Shown: piece after piece, positions 4,680-48,230 of the stretch
How the letters are laid out: each line of letters starts with the position of its first letter
How positions within the stretch are numbered: the first letter of the stretch is position 1
Origin: Candidatus Woesearchaeota archaeon
Lineage (GTDB): Archaea; Nanobdellota; Nanobdellia; Woesearchaeales; JACPBO01
Assembly (NCBI GenBank): GCA_016180285.1
Contig: JACPBO010000002.1
Location: forward strand, 15,570-79,569
Direction of reading: 5' to 3'
DNA: 64,000 bases
Notes under the pieces: generated by a model
Told to the model about the DNA's origin: nothing
Seen by the model: the letters and a program-made list of their open reading frames with translations, nothing else
The model's database searches: none
Made by a program: the position numbers and the translations under genes

Positions 4680-4680
4680 T

Positions 4681-5757
4681 TTAGTAGATCAGAGGGCAGG
4701 AATTTGATTCTGCGTCTAAACTTTGTCGAATTAATGCAGTTGCATCGGCATTTATTGCATTCATTACACTTGTATCTGCTGAACCAAAACCGCCATCTAA
4801 TTTTGATATCATATCATCCAACGCGGTTGTTGTATAATATGAGCAATGTGTTGCATCTGCACCAATAAGCTCATTTCTGTTCTTGTACAGTTCAGCCATT
4901 ATCTTGTATTTCCTGAATGCTTTTTCCATGTTGCATTTGTAATTCTCGGCATCTTCAGCGAATACTGCTCCAATCAAAGAAGGCACTTCAAGAAAAGGAA
5001 GTGCATTACCCGGTTGTACTCGAAAATATTTTGAATTTGCATCATACTCATAAAATTTTACTTCGTCATCATTTATACTTACTGCAGTAATCTGATTTTT
5101 CATTTTATCAAAAAAAGAAGGTGCGTTTGTTATGTCGATCGTGCCTGTAGCAGCATTAAAAAATATAAATTTTATTTCATAATTATTTTTATCCTCCAGT
5201 TTATCGTCACTTTCAACTGTGAGCTTGCTGATATCAATTATCTCTTTTGATATTTTTTCAGGCAGCATATCATAAAACTCTTTTGCCTTGTCCTCTGTTG
5301 TTGCATCCTTGACTAAAATATACCTCACTTCCGGGCTCGTAATATACAGAAAATTCATAATAAAAAATGGCGATTTCCATTTCATTGTGTAAGTAACCAT
5401 CTCTCTCCCCTTTATGTAATCCGGCGAAAACAATACTGTTGTTGCCAATGACTCTGAAACTCCTGTTTTTTCTATGTTAAAAGAGGATGTTGCTTCTTCA
5501 CAGACAAAATTGATTCTTTTATTTGGGGTTCTTATCAGATTTTCCCTGCTTTCCTCTGTGCCGAGCTTTGAGTGCATTATTATTGTCCTCAAATTGTTCC
5601 TTACATCTTTCGCCAAGTTAGTTTCTGCAAGCCCTCTCTGCCAGTTGACAATTGCAATAAAGAATAGAAGTATAAGCGAGCCTGCAATTAGCACAAAGAT
5701 CCAGTTGAACTGAACCTCGATAACAGCTTTTCTGTTAAGATTCCGAGATTTCAACAT
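4681..5757 (-). CDS. Type IV pilin-like protein (class III signal peptide), 358 aa
   Basis: N-term MLKSRNLNRKAVIEVQFNWIFVLIAGSLILLFFIAIV; overlaps upstream gene by 23 nt. Confidence 0.55.
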   Translation of the reverse strand: MLKSRNLNRKAVIEVQFNWIFVLIAGSLILLFFIAIVNWQRGLAETNLAKDVRNNLRTIIMHSKLGTEESRENLIRTPNKRINFVCEEATSSFNIEKTGVSESLATTVLFSPDYIKGREMVTYTMKWKSPFFIMNFLYITSPEVRYILVKDATTEDKAKEFYDMLPEKISKEIIDISKLTVESDDKLEDKNNYEIKFIFFNAATGTIDITNAPSFFDKMKNQITAVSINDDEVKFYEYDANSKYFRVQPGNALPFLEVPSLIGAVFAEDAENYKCNMEKAFRKYKIMAELYKNRNELIGADATHCSYYTTTALDDMISKLDGGFGSADTSVMNAINADATALIRQSLDAESNSCPLIY

Positions 5758-6262
5758 AGTTGCCCCTGCCTGTTATTCTGAATGTGGCTCTGCCAGAAGA
5801 GGCATCTGCGCATAAAAACAAAGGGTTTGCAGAATCTGTAAGATCTGGGTCCGGAATATTGATTTTTCCCGCATAAAATGATTCAACTGATGCCTTGCTT
5901 TTAACCAGAAATATATTTTTCTTAACGCCTGAGCTGATGCTGTTTTTTATTATGGAGTTCAAGCTAGCAGAAGGTGATGAACTGCCTATCAGGCCATCAT
6001 CAACAAAGCATATCTGATTATAACCCGCAGGAAGCTTTAAATCCAGAAGCTCGGAACTGCCTGCCTCTGTTGTTATTGCGCTTATATCCCTCTCCAAGGA
6101 TGTCTTAAACCTTATAAAGTCCGCCTCTGTCGACTTCACCATTAAATCGCGTATCGCCTTGAATCCAAAAATCATAACTAACGCTATAACTAGCAATGCA
6201 AGTATGAAAACAAACACAAGATTTTGAACTTCTGCTTTTGCCATGTTTTTATTCCGCATCAA
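5735..6262 (-). CDS. Type IV pilin-like protein (class III signal peptide)
   Basis: N-term MMRNKNMAKAEVQNLVFVFILALLVIALVMIFGF; overlaps giant gene end (6249) by 14 nt, indicating co-transcription. Confidence 0.55.
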   Translation of the reverse strand: MMRNKNMAKAEVQNLVFVFILALLVIALVMIFGFKAIRDLMVKSTEADFIRFKTSLERDISAITTEAGSSELLDLKLPAGYNQICFVDDGLIGSSSPSASLNSIIKNSISSGVKKNIFLVKSKASVESFYAGKINIPDPDLTDSANPLFLCADASSGRATFRITGRGNYVEISES

Positions 6263-9200
6263 GATTTGACAGGATTTTCTTTGCTTGGGCTGCTGTTATT
6301 AATTTCTGGTCTGCAAGATTCAACAAAAGAGACCTTGCGTCTGATTTTGCGATTTTATCCAGCTTTATCAGCTGCGATAATATTTCTTCTGCAAGTCCTC
6401 TTGTGATTTTCTTGGTTTTAAGAAGATTGGAGAATGTTCTGCTGAGGTCTTGCTTGGCTATTTTCCTTGATTCTGCCAATGCAATCAATTTCTTTGCATA
6501 ATCCCCTTTCAAATTATTCTTTATAACCCCTTTCAATCTTTTAAATGCCTCATCCTTATCTGTTTCTTTCTTTAATGCAGCTGGTTTTTCTTTTGTTTTA
6601 ATCTCTTTTTTCGGTTTTTCAGCCAATATTCTTAATTTAGCAAAAATATCTCCCTTTACTTCAGGCTTTATTTTTGTTATTCCCGGATTTTCTTCTGCAA
6701 CGTCTATTTGTTCAACCTGCTTTTCTTCAGTTTTTGCTTCGGTTGGCTTTTCAGCTATTTTTTCAGGAGTATTTTCTTCTTCAAAGGCATTGAAAACCTT
6801 TTCCCTTTCTTTTTTCTCTGCTGCCCGCTTTATTTCCATGGATCGATGCGCAGGCCTTTGCATAAATCCCGGTTTTGCTTCCGGTCTTGACAGTGTTATT
6901 GGCTGCTGCATTCTTGGCGAATAGTGGGGCTTTTTCTTCTGCAGATAAGGCTTGTAGTAATATTCATAGAATGCATAGCCTCCTCCGCCGAGTGCTGCAA
7001 TTATCAGAACAGCCAATAATATCGGGAACCAATTGAAGCCCCCTGATTTTTCAGGATTTGGTTCAGTTGTTGAGCCGGTTGTTTTTTCAGTGCACTGGCT
7101 ATTAAGGCAGTAGTTTGTTGCGCAATCTCTTGAAATTAAGCATGTTTTTCCAACATGGCATTTGGGGCAGTTTGATCCGCCGCAGTCCTTGTCAGTTTCA
7201 TCATTGTTTTTTACATTGTCGCTGCATGTCTGGTTTATGCATTTTTTATTCGGGCTGCAATAATTTGTTTTGCAGTCACTGTTGGACAGGCAATTTTTAT
7301 CCGGGCTGCATGGGTCGCACCCTCCGCCGCAGTCTATGTCTGTTTCATCTCCGCTTAATTTAGCATCCTTACAGCTGTCGATGTTTTTTTTGCATATTCC
7401 TGACTTGCACTTTAAATTAGTTGCGCAATCGTTGTCTTGTATGCATTTCTTGCCTTCTGGGCAGTCTGAGCAGCTTCCGCCGCAGTCTATGTCTGTTTCA
7501 TCTCCATTCCTGATATCATCGTTGCATGAAGGATTGGCGCATTTCTTAGTTGAATTTGGGCAATAGCCGCTCAGGCAGTCTGAATTTATCAGGCAATTCT
7601 TGCCGCTAATGCAACCCGCGCATTGTTTGCCGCAGTCCACATCTGTTTCTGTGTCGCTTTCAAATAAAAGATCTATGCAATGGCCTGGTAGCTTTGATAT
7701 ATCGACTGTCACGCCATCGCTGGACATAACGTCGCTTGTCCAGTTCGCATAATCAACTGCCTTTACTTTAAATTTGTATGTTCTTAGGTTTGTTAAGTTC
7801 AGCTTTGTTCCATTGCTCTGCATCCAGTTTGGCTCATTGTCTTTCGTTAACCAATACCATTGGTCATCTATTGAGCTTGTTGTCCAATTCACAACCACAT
7901 TCAAATAGCTGTCTTCCAGTAAATATTGATAGTACCATATCCCCGATCCTGCATCAGTGCCGTGCCATTTTGCCTGCAGTCTGTCAGAGAAATATGAGTA
8001 TTGCGTATTATTAGCTAAATTGCTGGAATCATCAACATAGCTCATATTCGGCTTCTTTGTGTCAACTAAGAAAGTGATTGTTACTGGATCAGACCATAAT
8101 CCTGCAGCGATGCACTTCGCATAATATGTGTTTGAGCCTTCCTGCTGACCGGGGGTGTGCTTGTGGCGGTAGCCTGTTGTTTCTGAGAATAAATAGATCA
8201 TTGAAGAGCTGCTAATTCCCCAAAAACATTCTGCATTTTTATTAGTGCCTATATCTATCTTTGTTTGGTTCATATTGCTGTATGCAAGTGTATAAACTGC
8301 TATTGTGATTGGAGCGCTAAGGTTGACTGCAAAGTTTATGGCGGATGTTGCTGATGCCCAACCGGCGAGATTCTCGCATGCAACGTAATATGTATAGCTT
8401 CTCTCTTCCAGCGGAAGGTAAAATATCTGGCGGTGTATTGTATTGAATTGCTTTTGTGCATAGCTTGAGAAGTTCCCTTCCATCAGGGCATAGTTCTGTG
8501 TTGTATTGCTGTATTTGCAGAGTGTTGCCTCGTTTGTCTGAACATTCAATGTGACATTTGGAGGGAATTCCACCACGGGCGATGGGTTTGCATATGCTGT
8601 TATTATTTGCGGAGGCGATGAATCAACTCTTATGATGAAGGTCACATTCACCAGGCCTCTGATGGTATCATTGCATCTTACGTAAAAGTTATGGTTGTTT
8701 TCGTCTGCTAAGTAGATGTTGTATAATTGATGCGCTGTTGAATTTGAACTATCAAAGCCGGCCATGTTGCTGAATGACTGAACCGATATATCAAGGGTTT
8801 GCCTGCATTGCACAGCCTTGTCTGTTAGCAGCGTTATATTGAACCTTTGTGTCGATGAAACATTGTAAGGTGGCTGTATCATTGTTATCACTAATGGAAT
8901 TGCATCGATTTCGAACAAGGTGCGCGAGGATACTGTGTTGCCAGCATAATCGTGTGCTGTTATTACCAGCGTTTTACTGCCATCTAAAAATTGCTGAGAC
9001 TTTGTAAAAAGCTTGTTAGATGATGATGAAAATGTTGAAATGTTTAATGACGCCCCATTGACAGTTACGTCATCCAAGAAAACTTTTTCACTGAAGTTGA
9101 ATATTATTGCCATTGTTGCTTCTAAAGAATAATTGCCATCTTTCGGGCTCTGCAAAGTCACTGTTGGCGGAGTTGTATCAACAACAAATGCTTTTGCAAA

Positions 9201-11498
9201 TACTGTTGGCATTAAAGTTTCAAGATCATCTTTTGCCCTCACTGAAAAAGTATAGCTGCCCTGGCCTAATGCTGCCGTTGGAATAAATGTATATGTTTTA
9301 CGATCGCCTGATGAATTGGTGCTGAATGTTATGTCTGCTGTTGAGCTGTTTATCTTCGATAATATTATCGTTGCAGGCTCATCAAATATCACAGTTATTG
9401 TTGGCAAGGCATTTTTTGTGTAAATAACATCATTTACTTCGGTGCCTTCTGTTATGATTATGTTAAGTATGTGTGGCGGAGTTGGAACTGGTGTAATAAG
9501 TACGCTTTGCACGATTCCAAGATTATGGCTAGGATCTTCTGTGTAATATTTTATTATATTGTTGTCTGACGTTGCCGGGTCATTGTCGCTTGTAAGATTG
9601 AATAAAAATGTCTGGATTGCGCCATCATAGATAGAAACAGTATAATCATTTACATAAAGCTTTAATTGTGTTGTTGAATTGCTGTAAGGATGGCCTGCCG
9701 CGCCGCATTCCGCCTCTCCAGGGCCATAATGGCAAAGATATGTTCTGTAGCTGCCTGGCGCCAAAACACTCCTGCCATAGTCTGATTTGGATGTTTTATC
9801 GTAAATCTGAATGTCCAGATATTCGTATGAGTTGTCTGTTGCCTTTACCGGCACAATTGTTGTTGTTGGATTGAAGTAGTCTGCTTCACAGCTGTTGTTG
9901 CCATCTGCGCAGTCCTGCGCATTATTGTTGTCTGTGTTTTTATGGCACTTGCCATTTATATATTCGCATACCCCTATCTTGCACGAATCTGCGCCTGATG
10001 TTGTAATTCTATTATTTGAATCCAGGGTTATGTGTTGGGTTCCGCATTCTGTTTGCGTATAATTCACGCAGGTCATTGCATTGCAGCTAATAGCTGCTGT
10101 GCCATTGACATAACAGGGATAATTTGCTGTTGATAGTGCTGTAGCTTTTCCCAAAGTGCATATGTCAAATATCTCATTGTATGACTGAAGATTTGAGGCT
10201 GAGCTTGTTCCCTTAAGATTGCATAACTCGCAATTGCTTCTGTCAAGATCAGCGCATACTCCTATTCCGAGTTCTGCAATTGTCGGTATCCATTTGCAGT
10301 TTCCAACGTTGCAGTTGTTGCTGCTGCATGCTGATTCTGACCTGTAATCATAGCAGAGCATGCTTGGGCTGCACTCATAGCAATAGTTTGTAATTGAAGG
10401 CGACCTGTCATAGAAGCAGTATTTTGGAGAAACTGCCCCTTCACAAAGGCTTTTACTAAAGAAAATCCCATATGGATTTGCGCTTGCATTTGAGCATGCC
10501 CCTGCTTTAAGGCATTGCGCTGTTGCTCCTTCTGCCGCGCATATATCTGCATAAGTTGATGAACAGGATGGATCCGGGCCGACTAGCTTGTTGTTATCAT
10601 TGCAAGTATATGCTTTGTTGAAGCGGCTGCCATAACTTGTTTTTGCATTTAATAAAAAGGCATTTTCATCTGCGCTGAATCCTTTTTTATCAGTCAAATA
10701 AGTTTTAAATTCCAGATAGCTTGAATTATGAAGGCAGAATTTGTCGCTGCTAAGCTTATTCCAGCATTCTACATTGCCTGTTGTAGTGTTTAAGTAGCGC
10801 GGATCTGAAGCTCCAGATAAGGAATATTCTGCAACTATCTTGTAAGTGTAGTTTGTGTCCCATAGCACATCGCCGTCAATGTAGAAATTGTTTAGCGTTG
10901 TTGCAATCTGCGTGTATGAAGCGCAGTTGCCCGTAATGCATTTTGAAATGATGTATTGGCTGACAGTGCATGATGCGTAAAAGTTCAGCTGCACTCCAAG
11001 TTCGCCTTTGGGATATGTTGTTGTTGCATTAGGCGGCTGCTTATATGTTACATCATTGCATGCTCCTGTTGGCGGAGGCGGTGGCGGAGTAGTGGCGCAT
11101 ACATCTGTGCACGTTCTTCCGTTATAGGCTGTGAATGTTGAGGTTGATGTTGTTGGGCATTCTGATTCTATCACATAGCTTGTTCCGCCAGGGCAGCAAC
11201 ATCCCACGTTTGTGCATTTTGATATCGCAGAACAACCTTGTGTGCCGCTGTAATAATTGGCATTGCAGTTTGCATAATCTTGCGGGCCATAGCCAGTTGC
11301 AGCAGAATAATAATCAGAGTATGATGCTTCCGGTGTCGGGCAGCAGTTTGCTAATGCTGAGTCTGTGCAGATCCTTGACCCCGCATTTGGATTGTAGCAG
11401 CATTGCTGCGCCTGTGGAAATGTGAATGTAGCCAGTAATGTGATGAATGCTGCTGCGAAAATTACGAACACCGCTAGTTTTATTTTTTTATTTTTCAT
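6249..11498 (-). CDS. Giant (1749 aa) cysteine-rich, N-glycosylated surface adhesin-like protein with C-terminal TM anchor and K/E-rich cytoplasmic tail
   Basis: Signal peptide MKNKKIKLAVFVIFAAAFITLLATFTF; Cys-rich N-terminal region with poly-Pro (PPPPPPTG). Many N-x-S/T sequons; Ig/FN3-like segments (TPPTVTLQSPKDG). Four tandem ~40-aa Cys repeats (NGDETDIDCGGxCxxC...GKxC...DC...C). TM FNWFPILLAVLIIAALGGGGYAFYEYYY, then ~220-aa charged tail with repeated K-[IL]-[ST]-x-x-x-A-x-x-I-L-S-x-L motifs. Confidence 0.8.
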   Translation of the reverse strand: MKNKKIKLAVFVIFAAAFITLLATFTFPQAQQCCYNPNAGSRICTDSALANCCPTPEASYSDYYSAATGYGPQDYANCNANYYSGTQGCSAISKCTNVGCCCPGGTSYVIESECPTTSTSTFTAYNGRTCTDVCATTPPPPPPTGACNDVTYKQPPNATTTYPKGELGVQLNFYASCTVSQYIISKCITGNCASYTQIATTLNNFYIDGDVLWDTNYTYKIVAEYSLSGASDPRYLNTTTGNVECWNKLSSDKFCLHNSSYLEFKTYLTDKKGFSADENAFLLNAKTSYGSRFNKAYTCNDNNKLVGPDPSCSSTYADICAAEGATAQCLKAGACSNASANPYGIFFSKSLCEGAVSPKYCFYDRSPSITNYCYECSPSMLCYDYRSESACSSNNCNVGNCKWIPTIAELGIGVCADLDRSNCELCNLKGTSSASNLQSYNEIFDICTLGKATALSTANYPCYVNGTAAISCNAMTCVNYTQTECGTQHITLDSNNRITTSGADSCKIGVCEYINGKCHKNTDNNNAQDCADGNNSCEADYFNPTTTIVPVKATDNSYEYLDIQIYDKTSKSDYGRSVLAPGSYRTYLCHYGPGEAECGAAGHPYSNSTTQLKLYVNDYTVSIYDGAIQTFLFNLTSDNDPATSDNNIIKYYTEDPSHNLGIVQSVLITPVPTPPHILNIIITEGTEVNDVIYTKNALPTITVIFDEPATIILSKINSSTADITFSTNSSGDRKTYTFIPTAALGQGSYTFSVRAKDDLETLMPTVFAKAFVVDTTPPTVTLQSPKDGNYSLEATMAIIFNFSEKVFLDDVTVNGASLNISTFSSSSNKLFTKSQQFLDGSKTLVITAHDYAGNTVSSRTLFEIDAIPLVITMIQPPYNVSSTQRFNITLLTDKAVQCRQTLDISVQSFSNMAGFDSSNSTAHQLYNIYLADENNHNFYVRCNDTIRGLVNVTFIIRVDSSPPQIITAYANPSPVVEFPPNVTLNVQTNEATLCKYSNTTQNYALMEGNFSSYAQKQFNTIHRQIFYLPLEERSYTYYVACENLAGWASATSAINFAVNLSAPITIAVYTLAYSNMNQTKIDIGTNKNAECFWGISSSSMIYLFSETTGYRHKHTPGQQEGSNTYYAKCIAAGLWSDPVTITFLVDTKKPNMSYVDDSSNLANNTQYSYFSDRLQAKWHGTDAGSGIWYYQYLLEDSYLNVVVNWTTSSIDDQWYWLTKDNEPNWMQSNGTKLNLTNLRTYKFKVKAVDYANWTSDVMSSDGVTVDISKLPGHCIDLLFESDTETDVDCGKQCAGCISGKNCLINSDCLSGYCPNSTKKCANPSCNDDIRNGDETDIDCGGSCSDCPEGKKCIQDNDCATNLKCKSGICKKNIDSCKDAKLSGDETDIDCGGGCDPCSPDKNCLSNSDCKTNYCSPNKKCINQTCSDNVKNNDETDKDCGGSNCPKCHVGKTCLISRDCATNYCLNSQCTEKTTGSTTEPNPEKSGGFNWFPILLAVLIIAALGGGGYAFYEYYYKPYLQKKKPHYSPRMQQPITLSRPEAKPGFMQRPAHRSMEIKRAAEKKEREKVFNAFEEENTPEKIAEKPTEAKTEEKQVEQIDVAEENPGITKIKPEVKGDIFAKLRILAEKPKKEIKTKEKPAALKKETDKDEAFKRLKGVIKNNLKGDYAKKLIALAESRKIAKQDLSRTFSNLLKTKKITRGLAEEILSQLIKLDKIAKSDARSLLLNLADQKLITAAQAKKILSNLDAE
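6940..7660 (-). repeat. Tandem ~150-bp DNA repeats encoding 4 Cys-rich CGG-type modules within the giant gene
   Basis: Near-identical segments, e.g. ccgccgcagtctatgtctgtttcatctcc at ~7321 and ~7471; spurious plus-strand ORFs 7115..7566 echo the periodicity (PPQSMSVSSP twice). Confidence 0.6.
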
Positions 11499-11500
11499 TT

Positions 11501-12724
11501 TTATGATATCGGGGTCTTTACTTCTTGATAATCTGACAGTTCGCCATCTGTTGCATTAACAATTATTTTTAGGCCATTTATTTTGTCATCATTGGTTATA
11601 TTGTAAGGGAACGTCAAGGTTGCGTGTAAATTATTTTTATTATAAACAAAATCAACTGCATCTTCATCCGGGTCATCTGCAACGGGCTTAAATAACAACA
11701 CATCATTTATTTTGATTTCATTGCTTGTATTTGTGATTAAATCGCCCGCATTAAATGATCCCGCAGGATTGCTAATTTTTTGCAATGCAGGCATTCTGTT
11801 TTTCCTTGCAAACCTCATAATATAAGGCTCATTCCATATTTTTGACTGTGTATCCATGATATTTATCAGGTCATCTTTGTTGTAATACTCTGCTGTGACA
11901 ATAACCTGCATTTCGCTGCTGCTCAATGTTCTTGGGTCAAAGCCAATATCTGTCACATCCTTGTTTATTATGTTTTTAACAAAGTCATATATTGTTTTAA
12001 GCCTTACTTTCTGATTTGAATTGAATTTGCTGATCTTTACTTTCTGGCCCGCTGCTGTTTTTGTTATTTCTAATGGAAATACAAGATTAACTGAAACATC
12101 TTTTTTTCCGATAATAGTTGATGTATTCGGCGCTTCTGCAATAACGCTGAATCCCTGCGGCTGAAAAACGCTGAAATCTGTGCAGTTTCGGATATGGTCA
12201 TTCACATATGACTCAAGCTGCCTTTGCAATGAATGAGAGCCTTGGCTCTTATACAGTGGCGGGAATCTGTCTTCCCCATAAACTCTGAATAATGGCGGGT
12301 TGTTCGGGTAATCCTGCCATGGATAAGCTGGCAGCTCAGCTGATAAAGAAAGTATTGAGATGCTTAACGGCATTATTGCATAAGGCACAATATAACTGCC
12401 GTCTTTCAAATAAAATTTGCCTAATTCCGAAGCATCATATTCTTTTATTGTTCCTCCCTGTGATTTGAAAATCACGCCTCCCTGCTTTCCCAATAATTGC
12501 AAAGCATCTGCTGAGACTTTATCAAGGCAGAATGTTACATAATTCTGTATCGGCTTTATTTCCTGCAGCTGCTCTTCTGTCAATTCTGTTTCCCCTCCGG
12601 ATTCTTTTTTTGCAGCATAGCTTATAACATAAAAAACCAACCCGAAGATGATTAAGATGACTATTCCGATTATCATGAAAACCGTTATCTGCGATTTTTT
12701 GCTTTTAATGTTATTTAGTCTCAT
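11501..12724 (-). CDS. Type IV pilin-like protein (class III signal peptide), 407 aa
   Basis: N-term MRLNNIKSKKSQITVFMIIGIVILIIFGLVFYVISY (KKSQ-ITV like KKSQ-TEV of 3661..4188); 3-nt gap to giant gene downstream; overlaps upstream gene by 14 nt. Confidence 0.55.
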   Translation of the reverse strand: MRLNNIKSKKSQITVFMIIGIVILIIFGLVFYVISYAAKKESGGETELTEEQLQEIKPIQNYVTFCLDKVSADALQLLGKQGGVIFKSQGGTIKEYDASELGKFYLKDGSYIVPYAIMPLSISILSLSAELPAYPWQDYPNNPPLFRVYGEDRFPPLYKSQGSHSLQRQLESYVNDHIRNCTDFSVFQPQGFSVIAEAPNTSTIIGKKDVSVNLVFPLEITKTAAGQKVKISKFNSNQKVRLKTIYDFVKNIINKDVTDIGFDPRTLSSSEMQVIVTAEYYNKDDLINIMDTQSKIWNEPYIMRFARKNRMPALQKISNPAGSFNAGDLITNTSNEIKINDVLLFKPVADDPDEDAVDFVYNKNNLHATLTFPYNITNDDKINGLKIIVNATDGELSDYQEVKTPIS

Positions 12725-13439
12725 TTTTATTTTTTATATTTTCAATGATTTCATCAACCAAATGCTCTGGCCAGCCTAGTTTTATAAGGCCTTTTTCAAT
12801 GTGCTCTGCAGTATAGCCTTTTCTGATTGCATCTTCTATGTAATTTTTCAGCTCTTCGTTTTTACCGAGCTGCTTTTTCTCTTCCAGCTTTTTGAAAAAC
12901 TTGTTTCTCATTCTTTCAATGAAAAATATGATCAATGCTATCGCCATTATTACAGCGGCTATTATGATCGAATAAAGGCCTATTCCTGCAAATTGCTTTT
13001 CTTTTGAAGGGCAGTCTTGAGGGCATGATAATGGACTTTCATCCTGTCCGCATATGTTGTTGCCGCACTTCTTTGCATACCTGCCAACATCAATATCAAG
13101 CGCCCTTATGCCGGTTTGATCAAATATTTCAATTCTCTTTCCATTCTCAAAGTATGGTGTTCTAACAGTTGTTTTATTGCCGAACATTGAAAACTTGAAT
13201 GAATCCAGTATTTGGTTGTCAAAAGATGTTATTTCCAGCCTATAGCCATTTTCAGGCTCTACCCTTGCAGGAGCCTTGCCGCCTATTACATAGACGTGAT
13301 CCAGAACAAGCGCATTGCCTTTCAGCTCAAGCGATATTTCATAATGCTTGACTTGGCTCTGAGGCATTGCAGCTTGGACTAGGAATGTGTTTAATAGAAA
13401 AAATACAAAAACCGAGTAAAGTGTTTTATTTCTGGTCAT
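12711..13439 (-). CDS. Type I membrane protein with Cys-rich stalk (CGNNICGQDESPLSCPQDC), TM and conserved cytoplasmic tail motif
   Basis: Signal peptide MTRNKTLYSVFVFFLLNTFLVQAAMP; stalk motif immediately before TM IGLYSIIIAAVIMAIALIIFFI; tail ends NYIEDAIRKGYTAEHIEKGLIKLGWPEHLVDEIIENI, matching the motif in ORF 19719..20381 N-terminus and the 2364-aa protein C-terminus. Confidence 0.6.
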   Translation of the reverse strand: MTRNKTLYSVFVFFLLNTFLVQAAMPQSQVKHYEISLELKGNALVLDHVYVIGGKAPARVEPENGYRLEITSFDNQILDSFKFSMFGNKTTVRTPYFENGKRIEIFDQTGIRALDIDVGRYAKKCGNNICGQDESPLSCPQDCPSKEKQFAGIGLYSIIIAAVIMAIALIIFFIERMRNKFFKKLEEKKQLGKNEELKNYIEDAIRKGYTAEHIEKGLIKLGWPEHLVDEIIENIKNKNETK

Positions 13440-13487
13440 TTTTTTATTTCATGGTTTGTTTTGCAAATATTATTAATGCATGAGCAA

Positions 13488-14066
13488 TTATTTACAATAA
13501 ACAATTGCTCTTCTTTCAAAGGTCCAGCCATTAATGTCAGGACAACACCCGCAATTTCCACTATAGCGCCAAACAGTGTATAGATTAGCAGGGTCATCCT
13601 TGGCTAGCCCATCTGGGCTAGGAGAACCATAATACCACGTGTCATCATCACAAAACCTAGGTCCTACGTAATACCAGTCCTTATAAAAATACCCGCCACG
13701 GCCTCCACCTAAGTGCGTATAATGGGCTACTGCATCTACTGCGCCATCATAAGTTCTTCCAACCACGTCACATAATCTTGCATAATTGCCATTAATTATC
13801 ACATCCGCCTCCCATTCAACTGATGTTGGTAGAGTGCCTGAGAAAAAAAGCGGTATTCGGCCGCCTCCCAGCTCTTTAGCATCTATCGCCTTTTGTAATG
13901 TTTTCTGCATGCCGCTGATATTAACCATCACTTCCCCTGAGCTGTGTCCGAATGTTTCCGGTGATTCTGTATTAAACGCTATGACTAGCCCAAGGCCAAC
14001 TACAGCCAAAACAAAAGCCATTAAAATATACAAATGTTTCTTTGCTATGTTCAGTTTTATTTCCAT
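13488..14066 (-). CDS. Membrane-anchored hypothetical protein with Gly- and Cys-rich ectodomain
   Basis: N-term MEIKLNIAKKHLYILMAFVLAVVGLGLVIAF (signal anchor); C-term ...YSGNCGCCPDINGW; no recognised domain. Confidence 0.45.
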   Translation of the reverse strand: MEIKLNIAKKHLYILMAFVLAVVGLGLVIAFNTESPETFGHSSGEVMVNISGMQKTLQKAIDAKELGGGRIPLFFSGTLPTSVEWEADVIINGNYARLCDVVGRTYDGAVDAVAHYTHLGGGRGGYFYKDWYYVGPRFCDDDTWYYGSPSPDGLAKDDPANLYTVWRYSGNCGCCPDINGWTFERRAIVYCK

Positions 14067-14111
14067 TTTAGCTCACCCTTTTTAGTTTTTAGTTTATCTT
14101 ATGTTTATTCA

Positions 14112-15077
14112 TTATTTTAATTTTGATTTAATTTCTTGCTCACTTGGAAGCTTGATTTTATATTCGGCAACAAAAATTTCCTTTTTTAAACCACCCAATG
14201 CATAATGCACTGTTTCATCATCTTTAGTTTTGCAGATTATTAAGCCAATCGGCAAACGCTGGCCATTCTTCAATTTATTCTCCTTATACCAGTTAAGATA
14301 AGAGTACATCTGGCTCACATGAGAATGCTTAAACTCCTCAGTTTTTATTTCTACCAAAATATAGCACAATAATCCGGCATGGAACAACTCTAAATCAATT
14401 TTATCATAATTGCCTGCGATCAGTATTGGAACCTCTCTTCTGCCAATAAAGAAATCTGAGCCTAGTTCTTGGAGTAATTTTTCAAATTTATTCAATAGGG
14501 CATCTTTAAACTCCGTTTCTTTAGAATTTTCATCTAAGCTTAAAAAATTAAAATGATAGACCTCTTTGAAAATTTGTTCGGGTTCAATGGTTTTTAGAGG
14601 AAGCCTCTTTTTAATGGCTAATGTGCCTTTTTGGGAGGCCTTTTGGTATAGCTTCTTTTTGATTTCCTGATGAACAATTCTGACACTCCAGCCATTTTGA
14701 ATTATTTGTTGCCCATAAAAATCTCTTTCCTCTTTTTTTGCAAGCTTAATTAATTCAACAATGTGGGACCAGCTTAATTGTGCAGACACTGTCTGCACAA
14801 TTGGATATGTTCTGTAGAATTGGACTATCTCAAACATTAATCTCCTAGAAAAGCCTAAATCGTGCGCTAAGTTATCTAAGAGGTATTGCCCATAATCTGC
14901 CCTTTCTTTATGCTGCAATTCTTCCCTTACTATTCTCTCTCCTATCTGCCAGTATGTTTGCACCCTTACATTATCTACTGCCTTATAGGCCTGTGCTTTG
15001 GCCTTGTCAAGCAAAAATCGTATATCTTTAAGTACCTGATCATATTCTTCAATTTTTGATAAATCGGTTTTTTTCAT
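14112..15077 (-). CDS. DUF1016/YhcG-like PD-(D/E)xK nuclease family protein
   Basis: N-terminal ...KAKAQAYKAVDNVRVQTYWQIGERIV... matches the conserved DUF1016 N-domain (YWxIGxxI); C-terminal ...ELFHAGLLCYILVEIKTEEFKHSHVSQMYSYLNWY contains D...E-x-K nuclease-like core. Predicted cytoplasmic, embedded in the surface-protein array. Confidence 0.6.
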   Translation of the reverse strand: MKKTDLSKIEEYDQVLKDIRFLLDKAKAQAYKAVDNVRVQTYWQIGERIVREELQHKERADYGQYLLDNLAHDLGFSRRLMFEIVQFYRTYPIVQTVSAQLSWSHIVELIKLAKKEERDFYGQQIIQNGWSVRIVHQEIKKKLYQKASQKGTLAIKKRLPLKTIEPEQIFKEVYHFNFLSLDENSKETEFKDALLNKFEKLLQELGSDFFIGRREVPILIAGNYDKIDLELFHAGLLCYILVEIKTEEFKHSHVSQMYSYLNWYKENKLKNGQRLPIGLIICKTKDDETVHYALGGLKKEIFVAEYKIKLPSEQEIKSKLK

Positions 15078-15084
15078 GTTTTAT

Positions 15085-15387
15085 TTATTGCTTGGTTTCG
15101 CTTAATTGCTCATTTGTCCTTAAACAAGCTACATCTATGAAATTAAATGTCTGGTTTCCAGCAAACAAGCTTACGGGCTGGCAGTTTCTGGATTGCTGAA
15201 TTATTGAAATAATGCTGTTCTGCAACCCTATATTATAGCCGCTTTGCTGTGCAGCAAAAATCTGTCTGTTATACCACGAATTCCATAACAATCCTGCAAT
15301 TATAACTATTAAGATTGCTATAATGATGTAAAGGATTTTTGTTTTTTCCATCTTTTTCGCCCCTTTGGTTTCAATTTTGTTTTTCAT
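15085..15387 (-). CDS. Small single-TM protein (100 aa)
   Basis: MKNKIETKGAKKMEKTKILYIIIAILIVIIAGLLWNSWY; basic N-terminus plus TM. Confidence 0.4.
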   Translation of the reverse strand: MKNKIETKGAKKMEKTKILYIIIAILIVIIAGLLWNSWYNRQIFAAQQSGYNIGLQNSIISIIQQSRNCQPVSLFAGNQTFNFIDVACLRTNEQLSETKQ

Positions 15388-15388
15388 T

Positions 15389-16678
15389 TTATTTGCAGCA
15401 TATCTTCAGGCTGTAATAATCGCATTTTGCAACATGAGTGTTGTAAACAGGCGATGCTGTTGCCTGCGCTAAGGAGGCGATGCATGTCTCGTCAGCGTTG
15501 CATGCGCCGTCCCTATTCGCGCATTGTGTTGTGCTTGGCGAAACGCAGATATTTGTTGAATATCCTGCTATTGTTGTTGAAGGCTCTGCTGCATGCGCAT
15601 TTGAAGCTGCATTAAGCTTCAATATGGTTGTTCCGCAGCTGTTGCTTGTGAACTTGCTGCTTGGGCAGCAGACTTTGTATGCTGCATCGCATGACTGCGA
15701 TGCATGTGAATTAGTTTCTGCATTCATTGAAAATATGCAAGTCTGCTCTGCTGTGCATGATGCTGAAACTGCGCATTCTGCTGCACCTTCTTCTATTGAA
15801 AAGGGAGTAGATGCTGTATCTGTCAAAACAGGCGTGTTTGAAGTTGCTGTTATTTCTGCTGTATGATCGCCTGAAGGTGCATTTGCCGAATCCCACTCCG
15901 TCATATATTCGTTTCTGCCTTGGCTTGTAAGCACAAGGTCATCTGCCAATCCTGGGCTGTGTATGTCTGCAGCCACGTTCACGCCGGATTGTGTATTATC
16001 AACAACTGTTGCTGTAATTTCGAACATTGTTCCTGATGATGATGTGATTGGAGTAATGCTGATATCTGAAATTTCAAGCTGGTTATTTGAAGGAGTTATT
16101 GTGATTATAACTTTATCTGGCTGGCTGTGAAGCTCGCCATCATAGACTGTTAATTGAAACTCATAAGTTCCTTGTTGCGTTGCTGTGAATGATGGCTTTT
16201 GAGCAGTTGTTGATGATAAGGTTACAGATGTGCCTGAGATTTGCGCCCAACCATAAGTTAGTTGAGCTCCTTCTGGATCAGAACTGCCAGAGCCATCTAA
16301 TTGTGTTATTGTGCTAACAGCAGATGTTCTATCTAGCCCGGCATTTGCTATTGGAGGGGCATTTGCTGTAGAAACTACTACTGTAACAACATCTATCGCG
16401 GTTTTTCCACTACTATCAGTTATAGTCAAAACTGAGTTGTAAGTTCCTGCTGAAGCATATATGTGAGTTGGATTTTGCTCATTGCTCTTTGTTCCATCGC
16501 CAAAGTCCCAGGAATAAGAAGCCACTGGGTTCGCCGATATTGCAAATCCCTTGAAGTCAACTGTGAATGGCTCTTGTCCATTAACTGTTTTTGTCGGGAT
16601 TGTTATTTTGATTAAAAGCAGCAGCATGATTACTGCAAAAACAATTTTCAGGCTGTTTATTATCTTTTTATTTTCCAT
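15389..16678 (-). CDS. Secreted PKD-domain protein with Ig-like repeats and Cys-rich C-terminus
   Basis: N-terminal hydrophobic signal; canonical PKD signature FAISANPVASYSWDFGDGTKSNEQNPTHIYASAGTYNSVLTITDSSG; further beta-rich repeats; C-terminal Cys cluster (CAVSASCTAEQTC...KVCCPSS...KICCK). Confidence 0.8.
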   Translation of the reverse strand: MENKKIINSLKIVFAVIMLLLLIKITIPTKTVNGQEPFTVDFKGFAISANPVASYSWDFGDGTKSNEQNPTHIYASAGTYNSVLTITDSSGKTAIDVVTVVVSTANAPPIANAGLDRTSAVSTITQLDGSGSSDPEGAQLTYGWAQISGTSVTLSSTTAQKPSFTATQQGTYEFQLTVYDGELHSQPDKVIITITPSNNQLEISDISITPITSSSGTMFEITATVVDNTQSGVNVAADIHSPGLADDLVLTSQGRNEYMTEWDSANAPSGDHTAEITATSNTPVLTDTASTPFSIEEGAAECAVSASCTAEQTCIFSMNAETNSHASQSCDAAYKVCCPSSKFTSNSCGTTILKLNAASNAHAAEPSTTIAGYSTNICVSPSTTQCANRDGACNADETCIASLAQATASPVYNTHVAKCDYYSLKICCK

Positions 16679-16679
16679 T

Positions 16680-19600
16680 TCAACCAGTATCCGCTATTGC
16701 GTATAGCATGTCAATTGATCCGCCTGTTCCGGCAATCCTTAATTTTGAAGTGAAGTCCCGCCATAGGTTGAATACTGCATCAGTTACTTTGTCTGCAAAT
16801 GGCTTTGCTGCAATGTAAAATTTGTTATTATCTTTATAGCATATGTACTTATTTGTTTTGTTAACATAATCATCGCATATATTTGTGCCAAATCCGGTGT
16901 AATTTATCACAAGGTATTTTGTTGAAACTCCGGTAGCATCGAGGATGTTTTCTTCTATTAATGCGAAAATTGACTTGTCAGTTGTTTTTAGCATATACAA
17001 ATGGCTGAAATCTTTTGTTTGGTTGATAAATGAGTAGTCAAATGATACCAGATTGCCTCCAAAGTCAAATGACGGCAATATAATGCTATTAATGAGTTGA
17101 TGCAGCGCCAGTATTGGGTTTCCTAATAAGATAAGCGATAATGTTTTAAGATATGCCTGAGTAAGTGTTGTCGGCATTGAAAACGCCGCATTGCTGTAAA
17201 TTAATGTTTTTGATGCATTATTGTACCATATTTTATTGCTGGCGTCGCATGAATGGAATTGGCCGTCATTTGTGGCTGTACAGCCTGATAAACTCAGCAC
17301 ATCAAGGAATTTATAATTTGGAGCATTCAGTTCCTGATTCACTGTTAAGCCAAATAATATGTTATTGTTGTAATTCAAAATACAAACCTGATTTGCGCAT
17401 GGCTGGTTTACCTGGCTGCCAAAAGTGCATTTATTTGAAATATAATCCTGCGCATTCTTTGTTCCAGATATTATGTAATTGTAATAATTCAGGACATTTG
17501 CGTAATTATCGCAGAATAAAGCATATTCGGAGCTTCCCGCTAAATTAATCATTGTTAATGCCAGCTGCTTTGTTCTTGTTGTCCAGTTTCCATTTTCGCA
17601 GTAATGATCCAAGACATATTGTGTATTGTTTATGCACTGCGGCTGTGTGGATGTGAAATAAGCGTCTGGGTTGTTGTTGCTTGCATAACTCCCAGATGGG
17701 TTTACAAGGCATTGCTGCTTCTCGGGGCAGTATCCTGCTTCATTGTTCCATGTCTTTTTCTGATAATCATCCTTCCATTCTCCGCTTAAGCATCGTTTGT
17801 TTTCATATGCCTGAGCAAGAGGATTTCCTGCTTGGTCATCAACACATGATGTTCCGTTCCAGCACTGTGAATCCTGGCAGCAACCTGCTGAACTGTATGA
17901 TGTTGCAAGCGCGGATAGTCCTGAAGGCGATGCTGAAGTGTGATTTTTCATTTGGCCATTATTGTCCAGCCATTCGCTTGAGTAATCGCAGTAAAATCTT
18001 CCCCTGTTTGTGCAGTAACCGTCATTAATTATTAAGTTGCCGGTATGCTGCGTATCTTGCTTTGTTTGCAAACCAGCAGGAATATTGCAGCCATAGAACT
18101 GGCCGTTGAGTGTCATTATGTTCTCGCCGCCTTTTAGAGAGACATCATCAAAGTATGCTGTCTGGCCTGATGCTGCTGAAAGGAATAGCTTAATGTAATA
18201 GGTTTGTTGTGTCGGTGTATAGGTTGAATTGTACAACGCCCATCCTGTGGCTTGCGTGACAGAATTTTGCAGAGCATCGCTTACAAAATTTTTAGAGGCA
18301 TCATATTGCTTTATTTTTGCGTTTATATTGCCGCTGTAGTAATATATCGATCTATATTCCACGTCTCCACTTACAGGTATGAAGTCGCTTTCTATTGATG
18401 CCCCGCTTATTAGTTTGGCTGCTGTTGAGCGAGTTGCGCCGCCATTGAAGGCTTCGATTTCTCCTGTTCTTAACCAATATTTCAGGTTATCAGCATCTAC
18501 CCACTCTGTGAGGCCGCTGTTTTTAAACAACTCGTTTGAGGACAGAATCGTATTGTTTGTTATCTCTCTTTCATCCCAGCAATTTGTGTTCGGGTTAGGA
18601 TTCATCACATCGTTATAATCTTCATGGGGATCTTCTCCGCAGCATAAGCTTCCCGTGTAGCTGAATCCTGCTGATTCGCAGCTTCCAGAAGAGTCATCAA
18701 GATTATTTGACCATATTTTTTTATCTCCTGTATCTATGCAATAATAAGTTGTTTGATCTATCCTTACAGAATCTCCTGTTTTGTTTCTTACTCCTTCAGA
18801 AGTGCCTCTGCAGATTGGTGCTCCGGTTCCATCAGAGTATGCTTGATCATTTCCTTTGCATTCATAAATGTTATAAGCGCCAGAAGCATTGTTAGAGCAT
18901 ATAAACCCATGCGACTGTGTGGTTGTAGATGGTGTTTTGGATACATCAATGTTAGTAAACCCAGGGCAAGCTGTCCAAACTCCATCTTTTGAAACATACA
19001 TTGTATTTGAAACGTTAATAACATCGCCCCTGCAGTCATCTGCCTTGAGCCATTGCCATGTGCTGTTTGCGCATATTATGCTGTTGTCTGATGTTCTATA
19101 ACCCATATCGCCAGAATCATCGCCGCAGCATGCTGATGCTGTGCTGGACCAAGCTCTGAGTGATGGGTTAGCAGCTTCTCCGCCAATTGGACAATTTAAA
19201 CAAGAGCCTTCATTCAAATCGGGATTGTCTGTTGCATCATCGCCGCAGCATTGATTTTTTGTTGTGTCCCAATAAAAGCCCTGAGATGCGCAACTGGCTG
19301 AGCAATTACCCGCCTCTTGCGGGCATTCTGACCAATCACTCCATGTATAGTTTCCTAGGCAATTTCTAGTTTGATTCCCGCAGGAAGTTGATGGGCATGC
19401 TTTGGTATCTATTACATCTGGCGTGGTGCACCCTATATTAGCGCACGTTATTCTACATGCCTCTTCGCCATAATTTGCAGCTGGACCTTCAAAAGGATGA
19501 CAACCATTGGGGTCTATTTCATCGCAGCCATGATTTGATCCAGAACCAATATCTTCACAGGATAACCTTGTATCGTCTGCATCATTGCAAAATACATCAG

Positions 19601-19706
19601 AGCCAGAATCTATCGTGTAAGTCACGTACTCCGCAGAAACAAACTTATTAATGATTAATAAAAACATTACGATTATCACCACCCTTATTATTGTTTTATT
19701 TTTCAT
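16680..19706 (-). CDS. Large (1008 aa) cysteine-rich secreted protein
   Basis: Signal peptide MKNKTIIRVVIIVMFLLIINKFVSAEY; >60 Cys; many N-x-S/T sequons; no C-terminal TM. Confidence 0.7.
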   Translation of the reverse strand: MKNKTIIRVVIIVMFLLIINKFVSAEYVTYTIDSGSDVFCNDADDTRLSCEDIGSGSNHGCDEIDPNGCHPFEGPAANYGEEACRITCANIGCTTPDVIDTKACPSTSCGNQTRNCLGNYTWSDWSECPQEAGNCSASCASQGFYWDTTKNQCCGDDATDNPDLNEGSCLNCPIGGEAANPSLRAWSSTASACCGDDSGDMGYRTSDNSIICANSTWQWLKADDCRGDVINVSNTMYVSKDGVWTACPGFTNIDVSKTPSTTTQSHGFICSNNASGAYNIYECKGNDQAYSDGTGAPICRGTSEGVRNKTGDSVRIDQTTYYCIDTGDKKIWSNNLDDSSGSCESAGFSYTGSLCCGEDPHEDYNDVMNPNPNTNCWDEREITNNTILSSNELFKNSGLTEWVDADNLKYWLRTGEIEAFNGGATRSTAAKLISGASIESDFIPVSGDVEYRSIYYYSGNINAKIKQYDASKNFVSDALQNSVTQATGWALYNSTYTPTQQTYYIKLFLSAASGQTAYFDDVSLKGGENIMTLNGQFYGCNIPAGLQTKQDTQHTGNLIINDGYCTNRGRFYCDYSSEWLDNNGQMKNHTSASPSGLSALATSYSSAGCCQDSQCWNGTSCVDDQAGNPLAQAYENKRCLSGEWKDDYQKKTWNNEAGYCPEKQQCLVNPSGSYASNNNPDAYFTSTQPQCINNTQYVLDHYCENGNWTTRTKQLALTMINLAGSSEYALFCDNYANVLNYYNYIISGTKNAQDYISNKCTFGSQVNQPCANQVCILNYNNNILFGLTVNQELNAPNYKFLDVLSLSGCTATNDGQFHSCDASNKIWYNNASKTLIYSNAAFSMPTTLTQAYLKTLSLILLGNPILALHQLINSIILPSFDFGGNLVSFDYSFINQTKDFSHLYMLKTTDKSIFALIEENILDATGVSTKYLVINYTGFGTNICDDYVNKTNKYICYKDNNKFYIAAKPFADKVTDAVFNLWRDFTSKLRIAGTGGSIDMLYAIADTG

Positions 19707-19718
19707 TTCATTGGTCCA

Positions 19719-48193: not shown

Positions 48194-48230
48194 TGGAACA
48201 GACTGGAGCAGCTGGGTTAATTCCAGCGTT

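What the first reader, a model, noticed from the sequence alone, without database searches (positions are those of the whole stretch)
12714..12830. Conserved ~35-aa cytoplasmic motif shared by three different membrane proteins (also at 20261..20363 and ~54950..55060)
Three proteins share a motif: the C-terminal tail of the 12711..13439 product (NYIEDAIRKGYTAEHIEKGLIKLGWPEHLVDEIIENI), the N-terminal cytoplasmic head of the 19719..20381 product (NYIKKQLTRGFSLDQIKTALLKTGYKMEDVKEAL), and the distal tail of the 2364-aa giant protein (KYIKNTLNAVIDKKLTIDQLKSALRQKGWNKDAIEAAL). Consensus: Y-I-x3-[IL]-x-[KR]-G-[YF]-[ST]-x-[DE]-x-I-x3-L-[IL]-K-x-G-[WY]-x-x-[DE]-x-[VI]-x-E-[AI]-[LI]. The tail of the 1749-aa protein carries related K-[IL]-[ST]-x3-A-x2-I-L-S-x-L repeats. 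A common intracellular docking module on otherwise unrelated surface proteins, in both membrane orientations, suggests shared sorting or anchoring to a cytoplasmic partner.
Basis: seen in the sequence. Interest (0 to 1): 0.62.

Follow-up and report, generated by a model that had tools for sequence, protein, structure and literature searches.

The report
Cytoplasmic three-helix module on archaeal membrane proteins
Three unrelated membrane proteins of this Woesearchaeota (DPANN) archaeon share a real 40-residue three-helix domain on their predicted cytoplasmic side; it belongs to a large family with no model of its own in Pfam or NCBIfam, is distantly related to the repeats of the bacterial RecX protein, and its function is unknown.

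Summary
The motif is real. A profile built only from 209 copies in other proteins scores the three window copies at 60.8, 56.3 and 32.6 bits (E 5e-18 to 3e-9 within the window). 2000 composition-preserving shuffles of each never exceed 12 bits. No fourth copy is in the window.

An exhaustive search of 1.84 billion protein representatives found 2043 proteins at E<=0.001. Many carry 2-12 tandem copies. All hits that carry an organism name come from Woesearchaeota or Nanoarchaeia.

In 127 of the 148 best proteins examined, the copies lie entirely before the first or after the last membrane helix. This fits a cytoplasmic position in both membrane orientations.

AlphaFold2 predicts a three-helix bundle (pLDDT 87). 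Three tandem copies give pLDDT 90 and pTM 0.68.

Pfam and NCBIfam have no dedicated model. The only recurrent weak relative is RecX.

The claimed relation to the repeats in the tail of the 1749-aa protein is not supported.

The function is inferred, not shown. My best guess is a multivalent intracellular docking or clustering module. It is a new variant of a known kind and moderately interesting.

The parts
12711..13439 (-). Protein a (242 aa, NCBI HYU07_00225). Type I layout: signal-peptide-like N-terminus, about 125-aa ectodomain, one membrane helix, basic juxtamembrane stretch, then the domain at the C-terminus.
12735..12854 (-). Domain copy in a, aa 196-235: ELKNYIEDAIRKGYTAEHIEKGLIKLGWPEHLVDEIIENI.
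   Evidence: 56.3 bits, E 1.3e-16 against the independent family profile. Shuffle control. Conserved in 4 orthologs.
12918..12983 (-). Membrane helix of a (aa 153-174), followed by ERMRNKFFKKLEEKK (positive-inside).
   Evidence: hydropathy
13365..13424 (-). Signal-peptide-like hydrophobic N-terminus of a (aa 6-25).
19719..20381 (-). Protein b (220 aa, NCBI HYU07_00255). Type II layout: the domain at the N-terminus, one membrane helix, then a 140-aa ectodomain whose homologs elsewhere are lipobox proteins without the head.
20253..20369 (-). Domain copy in b, aa 5-43: KLANYIKKQLTRGFSLDQIKTALLKTGYKMEDVKEALNK.
   Evidence: 60.8 bits, E 5e-18. AF2 model with helices at residues 3-15, 20-30 and 34-44, pLDDT 87.
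20142..20207 (-). Membrane helix of b (aa 59-80), preceded by RPSNIKK.
48231..55325 (+). Giant protein c (2364 aa as called). It is probably the continuation of ORF 43775..48193 across a frameshift. It ends in a cytoplasmic tail of about 320 aa.
54075..54350 (+). Three hydrophobic segments of c (aa 1949-1971, 1986-2004, 2011-2040). The strongly basic stretches after the first and third put the tail inside only if the weaker middle segment also spans the membrane. This is inferred.
54474..54764 (+). K/E/R-rich, coiled-coil-like linker between the membrane region and the domain in c.
54927..55055 (+). Divergent domain copy in c, aa 2233-2275: RLEKYIKNTLNAVIDKKLTIDQLKSALRQKGWNKDAIEAALAA. It has a 4-residue insertion after helix 1.
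   Evidence: 32.6 bits, E 3.3e-9. 41.0 bits against a shuffle maximum of 9.0.

Best explanation
The shared motif is one copy of a 40-residue, autonomously folding three-helix-bundle domain. The consensus is ELKNYIKKQLKKGYSKEQIKKALLKAGWPKELVDKAIEKI.

The domain defines a large family of membrane proteins. Every hit that carries an organism name comes from DPANN archaea (Woesearchaeota or Nanoarchaeia). It is a remote relative of the tandem three-helix repeats of RecX.

It is fused as a cassette, with an adjacent membrane helix, to many unrelated ectodomains and polytopic membrane domains. It always lies on the cytoplasmic side: before the first helix in N-in proteins, and after the last helix in proteins with a signal peptide. 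Elsewhere it usually occurs as 2-12 tandem copies with a 40-50-residue period, and these are predicted to pack into one continuous helical array.

Proposed mechanism (inferred): the domain is a multivalent protein-protein interaction module. It ties the intracellular ends of surface proteins to each other or to a shared cytoplasmic partner. Copy number sets the avidity. The likely contact points are the two conserved Gly-aromatic turns (G-[YFH] and G-[WYH]) and the basic-front, acidic-back charge pattern.

My confidence in each step:
- It is a real homologous domain family: about 0.95.
- The fold is a three-helix bundle: about 0.85.
- The location is cytoplasmic: about 0.85.
- It is related to RecX: about 0.6.
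- Its function is docking or clustering: about 0.4.
For: Family:
- 2043 representatives at E<=1e-3 and 149 at E<=1e-10 among 1.84e9 proteins. Up to 12 matched stretches per protein.
- The repeats are plain to see in the sequences.

Membership of a, b and c.

Fold:
- AF2 single copy: pLDDT 87, three helices.
- Three tandem copies: pLDDT 90, pTM 0.68.

Topology of the 148 best hits:
- 76 have all copies after the last membrane helix. 45 of these have a signal-peptide-like N-terminus plus exactly one helix.
- 51 have all copies before the first helix.
- 1 is mixed and 20 have no membrane helix. At least three of the 20 (P0039, P0102, P0109) are truncated ORFs.
- The median gap to the membrane helix is 9 residues (N-terminal type) or 29 residues (C-terminal type).

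Modularity.

RecX link:
- Pfam RecX_HTH1 is the only recurrent family: 7 of 93 members, best E 4e-8. P0012 scores 48 bits in sum.
- RecX models are the top NCBIfam hit for all 8 multi-copy members tested, E 1e-11 to 6e-4. Some alignments span two or three repeats in register.
- hhalign of the family against E. coli RecX gives 86% probability.
- PDB 3c1d matches one copy at TM 0.79 and rmsd 1.4 A.
- RecX 3dfg is rank 2 for the three-copy model.

For protein binding rather than DNA binding:
- Net charge is about 0, ranging from -9 to +10.
- The third-helix region is acidic in 65% of copies.
Against: - No partner was identified, and no co-occurring cytoplasmic domain gives a hint.
- The conserved positions are mostly those expected of a helical-bundle core (L4, Y7, I8, L12, I22, L26, I36, A39, I40). 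No clearly conserved binding surface is demonstrated. Model coordinates could not be inspected.
- Structure matches are not statistically significant (Foldseek E >= 0.2).
- The RecX sequence similarity lies below every curated cut-off for a single copy.
- The cytoplasmic location rests on hydropathy and the positive-inside rule, not on experiment. For c it depends on a weak middle membrane segment.
- The taxonomic range rests on only six named hits.
- The list of 150 best hits is biased towards multi-copy proteins.
Confidence: 0.5

Rival explanations
1. Passive structural or topogenic element. On this view the domain is a fast-folding helical plug next to the membrane helix. It fixes that end of the protein in the cytoplasm, stabilises single-pass anchors or acts as a rigid spacer, and has no specific partner.
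For: - Conservation is concentrated at positions expected of a bundle core, and surface positions vary.
- The domain is always close to a membrane helix: median 9 or 29 residues.
- The head plus membrane helix is kept as a unit while ectodomains are swapped.
- The sequence is close to an idealised designed three-helix miniprotein (8skx, E 4.6e-8).
Against: - Arrays of up to 12 copies and tails hundreds of residues long are not needed for topology.
- In c the domain lies about 190 residues from the membrane, behind a coiled-coil-like linker.
- The second turn is W, Y or H in 96% of copies and almost never F. This suggests a functional, partly exposed aromatic.
- Many surface proteins in the same cluster manage without it.
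Confidence: 0.2
2. RecX-like function. On this view the modules bind the archaeal RecA homolog RadA, or nucleic acid, and tether recombination filaments or DNA to the membrane under surface proteins.
For: - RecX is the only natural family recurrently matched by sequence and the best natural structural match.
- The tandem arrangement has a similar period.
- Weak hits to other nucleic-acid-associated helical domains also occur: RepB_primase_C, RuvA_C, and MCM winged helix.
Against: - Scores are far below RecX cut-offs: 17-45 bits against 146-351.
- The overall geometry of the three-copy model differs from RecX (TM 0.38, rmsd 10 A).
- Mean net charge is about 0, and the third-helix region is acidic in 65% of copies.
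- The window shows no link to recombination genes beyond general replication genes 10-20 kb away.
Confidence: 0.12
3. Extracellular wall- or S-layer-binding repeat, like the three-helix CW_7 repeats of the Cpl-7 lysin. This would mean the predicted topology is wrong.
For: - The Cpl-7 repeat (4cvd) appears among weak structural matches, TM 0.61.
- c's tail would be outside if its weak middle hydrophobic segment does not span the membrane.
Against: - 45 proteins have a signal peptide, ectodomain, one membrane helix and then the domains. 51 have the domains at the extreme N-terminus with no signal peptide.
- The stretches flanking the membrane helix on the domain side are K/R-rich.
- Homologs of b's C-terminal domain are lipobox proteins, so that end, not the head, is outside.
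Confidence: 0.04
4. Chance resemblance of K/E-rich amphipathic helices, with no homology.
For: - Within the window c matches a and b only at E 0.08-1.
- The region is lysine- and glutamate-rich.
Against: - The independent family profile gives 33-61 bits with small bias terms.
- Shuffles reach 12 bits at most.
- Thousands of database members share the same invariant Gly, Leu and aromatic positions.
Confidence: 0.01

Closest known systems
RecX recombination regulator. Its tandem three-helix repeats are Pfam RecX_HTH1 PF21982 and RecX_HTH2 PF02631 and the NCBIfam PRK00117 models; structures 3c1d and 3dfg.
   Same: - A repeat of about 40-50 residues made of three helices.
- Shared pattern [FY]-I-x7-G-Y-x4-I-R-x2-L-x3-G. 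E. coli RecX residues 70-106, [37 protein letters not shown], align with the family consensus.
- Tandem arrangement.
- One copy superposes at TM 0.79 and rmsd 1.4 A.
- hhalign gives 86% probability.
- It is the top NCBIfam hit for all 8 multi-copy members tested.
   Different: - RecX is a soluble bacterial protein with exactly three repeats that binds RecA filaments.
- Here 1-12 copies are fused to membrane helices of archaeal surface and polytopic proteins.
- Scores are far below RecX cut-offs.
- The three window copies do not hit RecX models at all on their own.
- The overall curvature of the three-copy model differs (TM 0.38).
- The conserved second-turn Trp and the acidic third helix are not RecX features seen in the aligned segment.
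UBA / TS-N type three-helix domains (Pfam PF00627 and relatives)
   Same: - Size of about 40 residues.
- Three helices, with a conserved Gly-aromatic first turn (compare UBA 'MGF/Y').
- They work as portable protein-protein interaction modules, often in several copies.
   Different: - Only sporadic weak hits: b to UBA_DHX29 at E 0.08, one of 93 members to UBA at 1.4e-5, and the Cbl UBA at E 0.04.
- No ubiquitin-like partner is known or tested here.
- The RecX signal is more consistent.
PEX14 N-terminal domain
   Same: - A small three-helix bundle next to a membrane anchor, acting as a cytosolic docking site for aromatic peptide motifs.
- Structural match at TM 0.76.
   Different: - Eukaryotic peroxisomal protein.
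- No sequence similarity was detected, and the Foldseek E-value is about 4.
- This is an analogy for how the domain might work, not evidence of kinship.

Membership tests
RecX (recombination regulator) | Score at or above the curated cut-offs of the RecX models. | tested here: not met
   - a, b and c give no RecX hit at E<=1.
- Multi-copy family members score 17-45 bits against NCBIfam cut-offs of 146-351.
- Only P0012 exceeds the Pfam RecX_HTH1 whole-protein cut-off (48 against 26 bits). It does so by summing 12 weak copies, and none passes alone.
RecX (recombination regulator) | The repeat unit folds as a three-helix bundle. | tested here: met
   - AF2 pLDDT 87, with helices at residues 3-15, 20-30 and 34-44.
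- Superposes on a 3c1d repeat at TM 0.79 and rmsd 1.4 A, although the Foldseek E-value of 3 is not significant.
RecX (recombination regulator) | A soluble protein of exactly three tandem repeats that forms an elongated molecule. | tested here: not met
   - The window proteins carry one copy each, next to membrane helices.
- Family members carry 1-12 copies.
- The three-copy model matches RecX 3dfg only at TM 0.38.
RecX (recombination regulator) | Binds and inhibits RecA-family filaments. | not testable with these tools
   This needs biochemistry or co-folding with RadA.
UBA-like domains | A significant match to a UBA-family profile. | tested here: not met
   Best results: UBA_DHX29 at E 0.08 for b, and one of 93 family members at 1.4e-5.
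The family delineated here (juxtamembrane three-helix repeat; named hits from Woesearchaeota/Nanoarchaeia) | A match to a profile built from copies in other proteins, with conserved L4, Y7, I8, G16, I22, L26, G30 and an aromatic at 31. | tested here: met
   - b 60.8, a 56.3 and c 32.6 bits. Shuffle control.
- c lacks G16 and the aromatic at 17.
The family delineated here (juxtamembrane three-helix repeat; named hits from Woesearchaeota/Nanoarchaeia) | Lies wholly on one side of the membrane region, the side predicted to be cytoplasmic. | tested here: met
   - a has it after a signal peptide and one membrane helix. b has it before a single helix. c has it after the last helix.
- 127 of the 128 membrane-helix-containing hits behave the same way.
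- The orientation is predicted, not measured.

The most novel reading that the evidence does not exclude
The tandem RecX-like modules on the cytoplasmic tails of giant DPANN surface proteins bind RadA filaments or incoming DNA. This would physically couple host-contact adhesins to DNA uptake and recombination in these genome-reduced symbionts.
Probability: 0.06. Interest if true: 0.85.

Novelty: new variant of a known kind. Interest (0 to 1): 0.5.

Why it matters
DPANN archaea depend on contact with host cells. They encode many giant surface proteins of unknown function, and almost nothing is known about what happens at the cytoplasmic ends of those proteins.

This portable intracellular module is shared by thousands of otherwise unrelated membrane proteins and is often present in high copy number. 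That makes it a concrete handle. A bait for finding an intracellular hub, if one exists, is now defined. The profile could also flag membrane proteins that share this cytoplasmic module.

The family also widens the reach of the RecX-type three-helix repeat from a soluble bacterial recombination regulator to archaeal membrane proteins. It fills a gap in the Pfam and NCBIfam releases searched here.

Tried and rejected
Searches that led nowhere:
- A word-indexed homology search with the three short motifs found only 7 candidates and no hit. The query was too short for that index.
- A scan of genome contigs with protein b found no relative.
- A degenerate DNA pattern for the motif gave 0 matches in genome contigs. 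Taxonomy therefore rests on six named cluster members. A third look-up returned no names.
- The 114-sequence alignment was too divergent for the search for related loci.
- Five literature searches found no description of the domain. One returned paper on archaeal hypothetical proteins was checked by term search and does not mention it.

Ideas rejected:
- Kinship with the tail repeats of the 1749-aa protein.
- A compositional artefact.
- A dedicated Pfam or NCBIfam family.
- A generic DNA-binding helix-turn-helix, because of the neutral mean charge and acidic third helix.
- SHOCT-like identity for the 1749-aa tail. This was recalled from memory, and Pfam gave no such hit at E<=1.
- Informative partner domains in the polytopic fusion proteins. 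None was found.
Full report
**Source and context.** The window comes from a Candidatus Woesearchaeota (DPANN) metagenome-assembled genome. Proteins a and b are identical to NCBI entries HYU07_00225 and HYU07_00255. The surrounding genes are archaeal: MCM with an intein, PolD DP1 and DP2, Cdc6, a proteasome-activating-type AAA ATPase and RNase P p30. No tRNA gene and no Rfam family was found. G+C is 39%.

**The observation.**
- Protein a (12711..13439, -) ends with ELKNYIEDAIRKGYTAEHIEKGLIKLGWPEHLVDEIIENI (aa 196-235, nt 12735..12854).
- Protein b (19719..20381, -) begins with KLANYIKKQLTRGFSLDQIKTALLKTGYKMEDVKEALNK (aa 5-43, nt 20253..20369).
- The 2364-aa ORF c (48231..55325, +) carries RLEKYIKNTLNAVIDKKLTIDQLKSALRQKGWNKDAIEAALAA near its end (aa 2233-2275, nt 54927..55055).

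Inside the window the statistics are only suggestive. a and b find each other as best non-self phmmer hits at E about 0.005 among 1055 six-frame segments. c reaches E 0.08-1.

**Outside evidence.** A 7-sequence profile was made from a, b, c and close orthologs of a and b. It was searched exhaustively against 1.84 billion representative proteins. The search returned 2043 proteins at E<=0.001 and 149 at E<=1e-10, many with several matched stretches, up to 12. The hit sequences show an obvious repeat with the same invariant positions.

I then built a profile from 209 copies taken only from those other proteins. The window proteins and their representatives were excluded.
- It scores b at 60.8 bits, a at 56.3 and c at 32.6 (E 5e-18, 1e-16 and 3e-9 for the six-frame window).
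- The next best segment has E 0.76, so the window holds no fourth copy.
- When the isolated peptides are scored, the real sequences give 60.5 (a), 64.9 (b) and 41.0 (c) bits. 2000 shuffles of each peptide reach at most 11.7 bits.

The profile is not fully independent, because its members were collected with a query that contained a, b and c. c is a divergent member: it has a 4-residue insertion and lacks the first Gly-aromatic pair.

**The side claim.** The tail of the 1749-aa protein (6249..11498, -) does end in four or five 18-residue helical repeats. These are well conserved in the ortholog in locus L001. They have no detectable relation to the domain: hhalign gives 0.2% probability and the HMM scores are about 0 bits.

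**Fold.** AlphaFold2 was run on b's head with a 114-sequence alignment of family copies. It gives a confident three-helix bundle (pLDDT 87; helices at residues 3-15, 20-30 and 34-44). A three-copy array from another family member gives pLDDT 90 and pTM 0.68. This suggests that tightly spaced copies pack into one continuous helical array rather than beads on a string. The commonest start-to-start spacing between copies is 40-50 residues.

**Where it sits.** Topology here is predicted from hydropathy and the positive-inside rule.
- Protein a has a signal-peptide-like N-terminus, an ectodomain, one membrane helix, a basic stretch (ERMRNKFFKK) and then the domain.
- Protein b has the domain first, then RPSNIKK, one membrane helix and a 140-aa C-terminal domain.
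- Homologs of b's C-terminal domain in other organisms lack the head and instead start with lipobox-type signal peptides. That end is therefore outside and the head inside.
- Protein c has three hydrophobic segments. The strongly basic stretches after the first and third put the tail inside if the weaker middle segment spans the membrane.

Among the 148 best database proteins, a crude hydropathy scan gives the following:
- 76 have all copies after the last membrane helix. 45 of these have a signal-peptide-like N-terminus and exactly one helix.
- 51 have all copies before the first helix. 27 of these have one helix and 24 are polytopic.
- 1 is mixed.
- 20 have no membrane helix. At least three of these (P0039, P0102, P0109) are visibly truncated ORFs, beginning inside a hydrophobic stretch or without a start residue.

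**Modularity.** In the syntenic locus of a related Woesearchaeota genome (L001, GCA_030651135.1) the neighbouring 1008-aa protein is 72% identical. The gene at b's position shares only the head and membrane helix (37% identity over aa 1-99) and has an unrelated cysteine-rich ectodomain. Fusion partners recognised by Pfam are extracellular or membrane domains, such as PKD/Ig-like, PASTA, MG2, DsbA-like and Cu-binding. No cytoplasmic enzyme domain was found.

**Comparison with known families.** Neither Pfam-A nor NCBIfam has a model that recognises the domain as such. a, b and c have no relevant hit even at E<=1. The only recurrent relative is RecX:
- Pfam RecX_HTH1 matches 7 of 93 members, best E 4e-8. 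The 12-copy protein P0012 reaches 48 bits in sum.
- RecX equivalog models are the top NCBIfam hit for all eight multi-copy members tested (E 1e-11 to 6e-4). Some alignments run over two or three repeats in register, but the scores are far below the cut-offs of 146-351 bits.
- The family profile aligns to E. coli RecX residues 70-106 (full-sequence E 0.016 against the PDB).
- hhalign against the E. coli RecX sequence gives 86% probability. Its relevant segments agree.
- Structurally, one copy superposes on a RecX repeat at TM 0.79 and rmsd 1.4 A. RecX 3dfg is rank 2, with the highest Foldseek probability (0.80), for the three-copy model. No Foldseek match is significant, and the global TM is only 0.38.

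The best PDB sequence match of all is a de novo designed three-helix miniprotein (8skx, E 4.6e-8). This shows how close the family is to an idealised helical bundle. UBA-type domains and the PEX14 N-terminal domain are weaker look-alikes.

I therefore call it RecX-like in fold and probably in ancestry. It is not a RecX protein.

**Function.** This part is inferred.
- The conserved positions are mainly those expected of a bundle core.
- Two Gly-aromatic turns are also conserved. The second is W, Y or H in 96% of copies and almost never F, which hints at a partly exposed, hydrogen-bonding aromatic.
- Net charge averages zero, ranging from -9 to +10. Helices 1 and 2 are mildly basic, and the third-helix region is acidic in 65% of copies. 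This argues against generic DNA or anionic-lipid binding through the classical recognition-helix position.

The variable copy number, the tight tandem packing, the long tails and the presence on many unrelated surface proteins fit best with a multivalent protein-protein docking or clustering module (about 0.4). The alternatives are a passive topogenic or spacer role (about 0.2), a RecX-like interaction with RadA or nucleic acid (about 0.12), and an extracellular role through mis-predicted topology (about 0.04).

**Distribution.** Every hit that carries an organism name is annotated as a hypothetical protein from Candidatus Woesearchaeota or Candidatus Nanoarchaeia. These are six proteins: three, two, plus the window's own. 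Most hits come from unnamed metagenomic contigs. The range outside these lineages could not be determined, because both genome-collection scans returned nothing.

**Novelty.** Five full-text searches found no description of this module. It is a real and apparently uncatalogued domain family of known fold type, in a new context. I rate it a new variant of a known kind. It is a useful handle on the cell biology of DPANN surface proteins, but no function has been demonstrated.

Noticed in passing
window 48140..48235 (ORFs 43775..48193 and 48231..55325, +): The 1472-aa ORF has an N-terminal membrane anchor. The 2364-aa ORF has no signal peptide. The two overlap in different frames. Upstream of its called start, the second frame reads EITKNENWTFSVRVYDGTDWSSWVNSS, which continues the adhesin-like repeat of the first ORF. 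They are probably one gene of about 3,840 aa, split by a frameshift in an A-rich run. The cause could be an assembly error, a pseudogene or programmed slippage.
   Followed up: partly
window 6252..6506 (-), tail of the 1749-aa protein: A cytoplasmic tail ending in four or five 18-residue helical repeats (K-[IL]-[STA]-x3-A-x2-[IL]-L-x2-L). It is about 80% conserved in the L001 ortholog, while the K/E-rich linker before it varies. It is unrelated to the three-helix domain and appears to be a second, different tail module.
   Followed up: partly
window 54813..54914 and 55194..55295 (+): In protein c the domain is flanked by two copies of a 34-residue motif, AKxLYLxxLExY-(9)-VYN[ED]xxxLYxxL. A partial third copy lies between them.
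   Followed up: no
window 14112..15077 (-): A YhcG/DUF1016 PD-(D/E)XK nuclease gene sits inside the otherwise conserved surface-protein gene cluster. No gene of matching size or Pfam annotation is listed in the syntenic locus L001, so it is probably a mobile insertion.
   Followed up: partly
window 3661..20381 (-) and L001 3759..20735: A long co-directional cluster of secreted and membrane proteins with no Pfam match, plus one PKD-domain protein. It is syntenic between two Woesearchaeota genomes. The 1008-aa protein is 72% identical between them, whereas the gene at b's position has swapped its ectodomain.
   Followed up: partly
window 26213..29512 (+): The MCM helicase gene is interrupted by an intein with a LAGLIDADG homing-endonuclease domain.
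   Followed up: no
family profile A5 against the PDB: The strongest PDB sequence matches of this natural family are computationally designed helical miniproteins (8skx at E 4.6e-8, 8vl3 at E 1e-5). They rank ahead of every natural protein.
   Followed up: no
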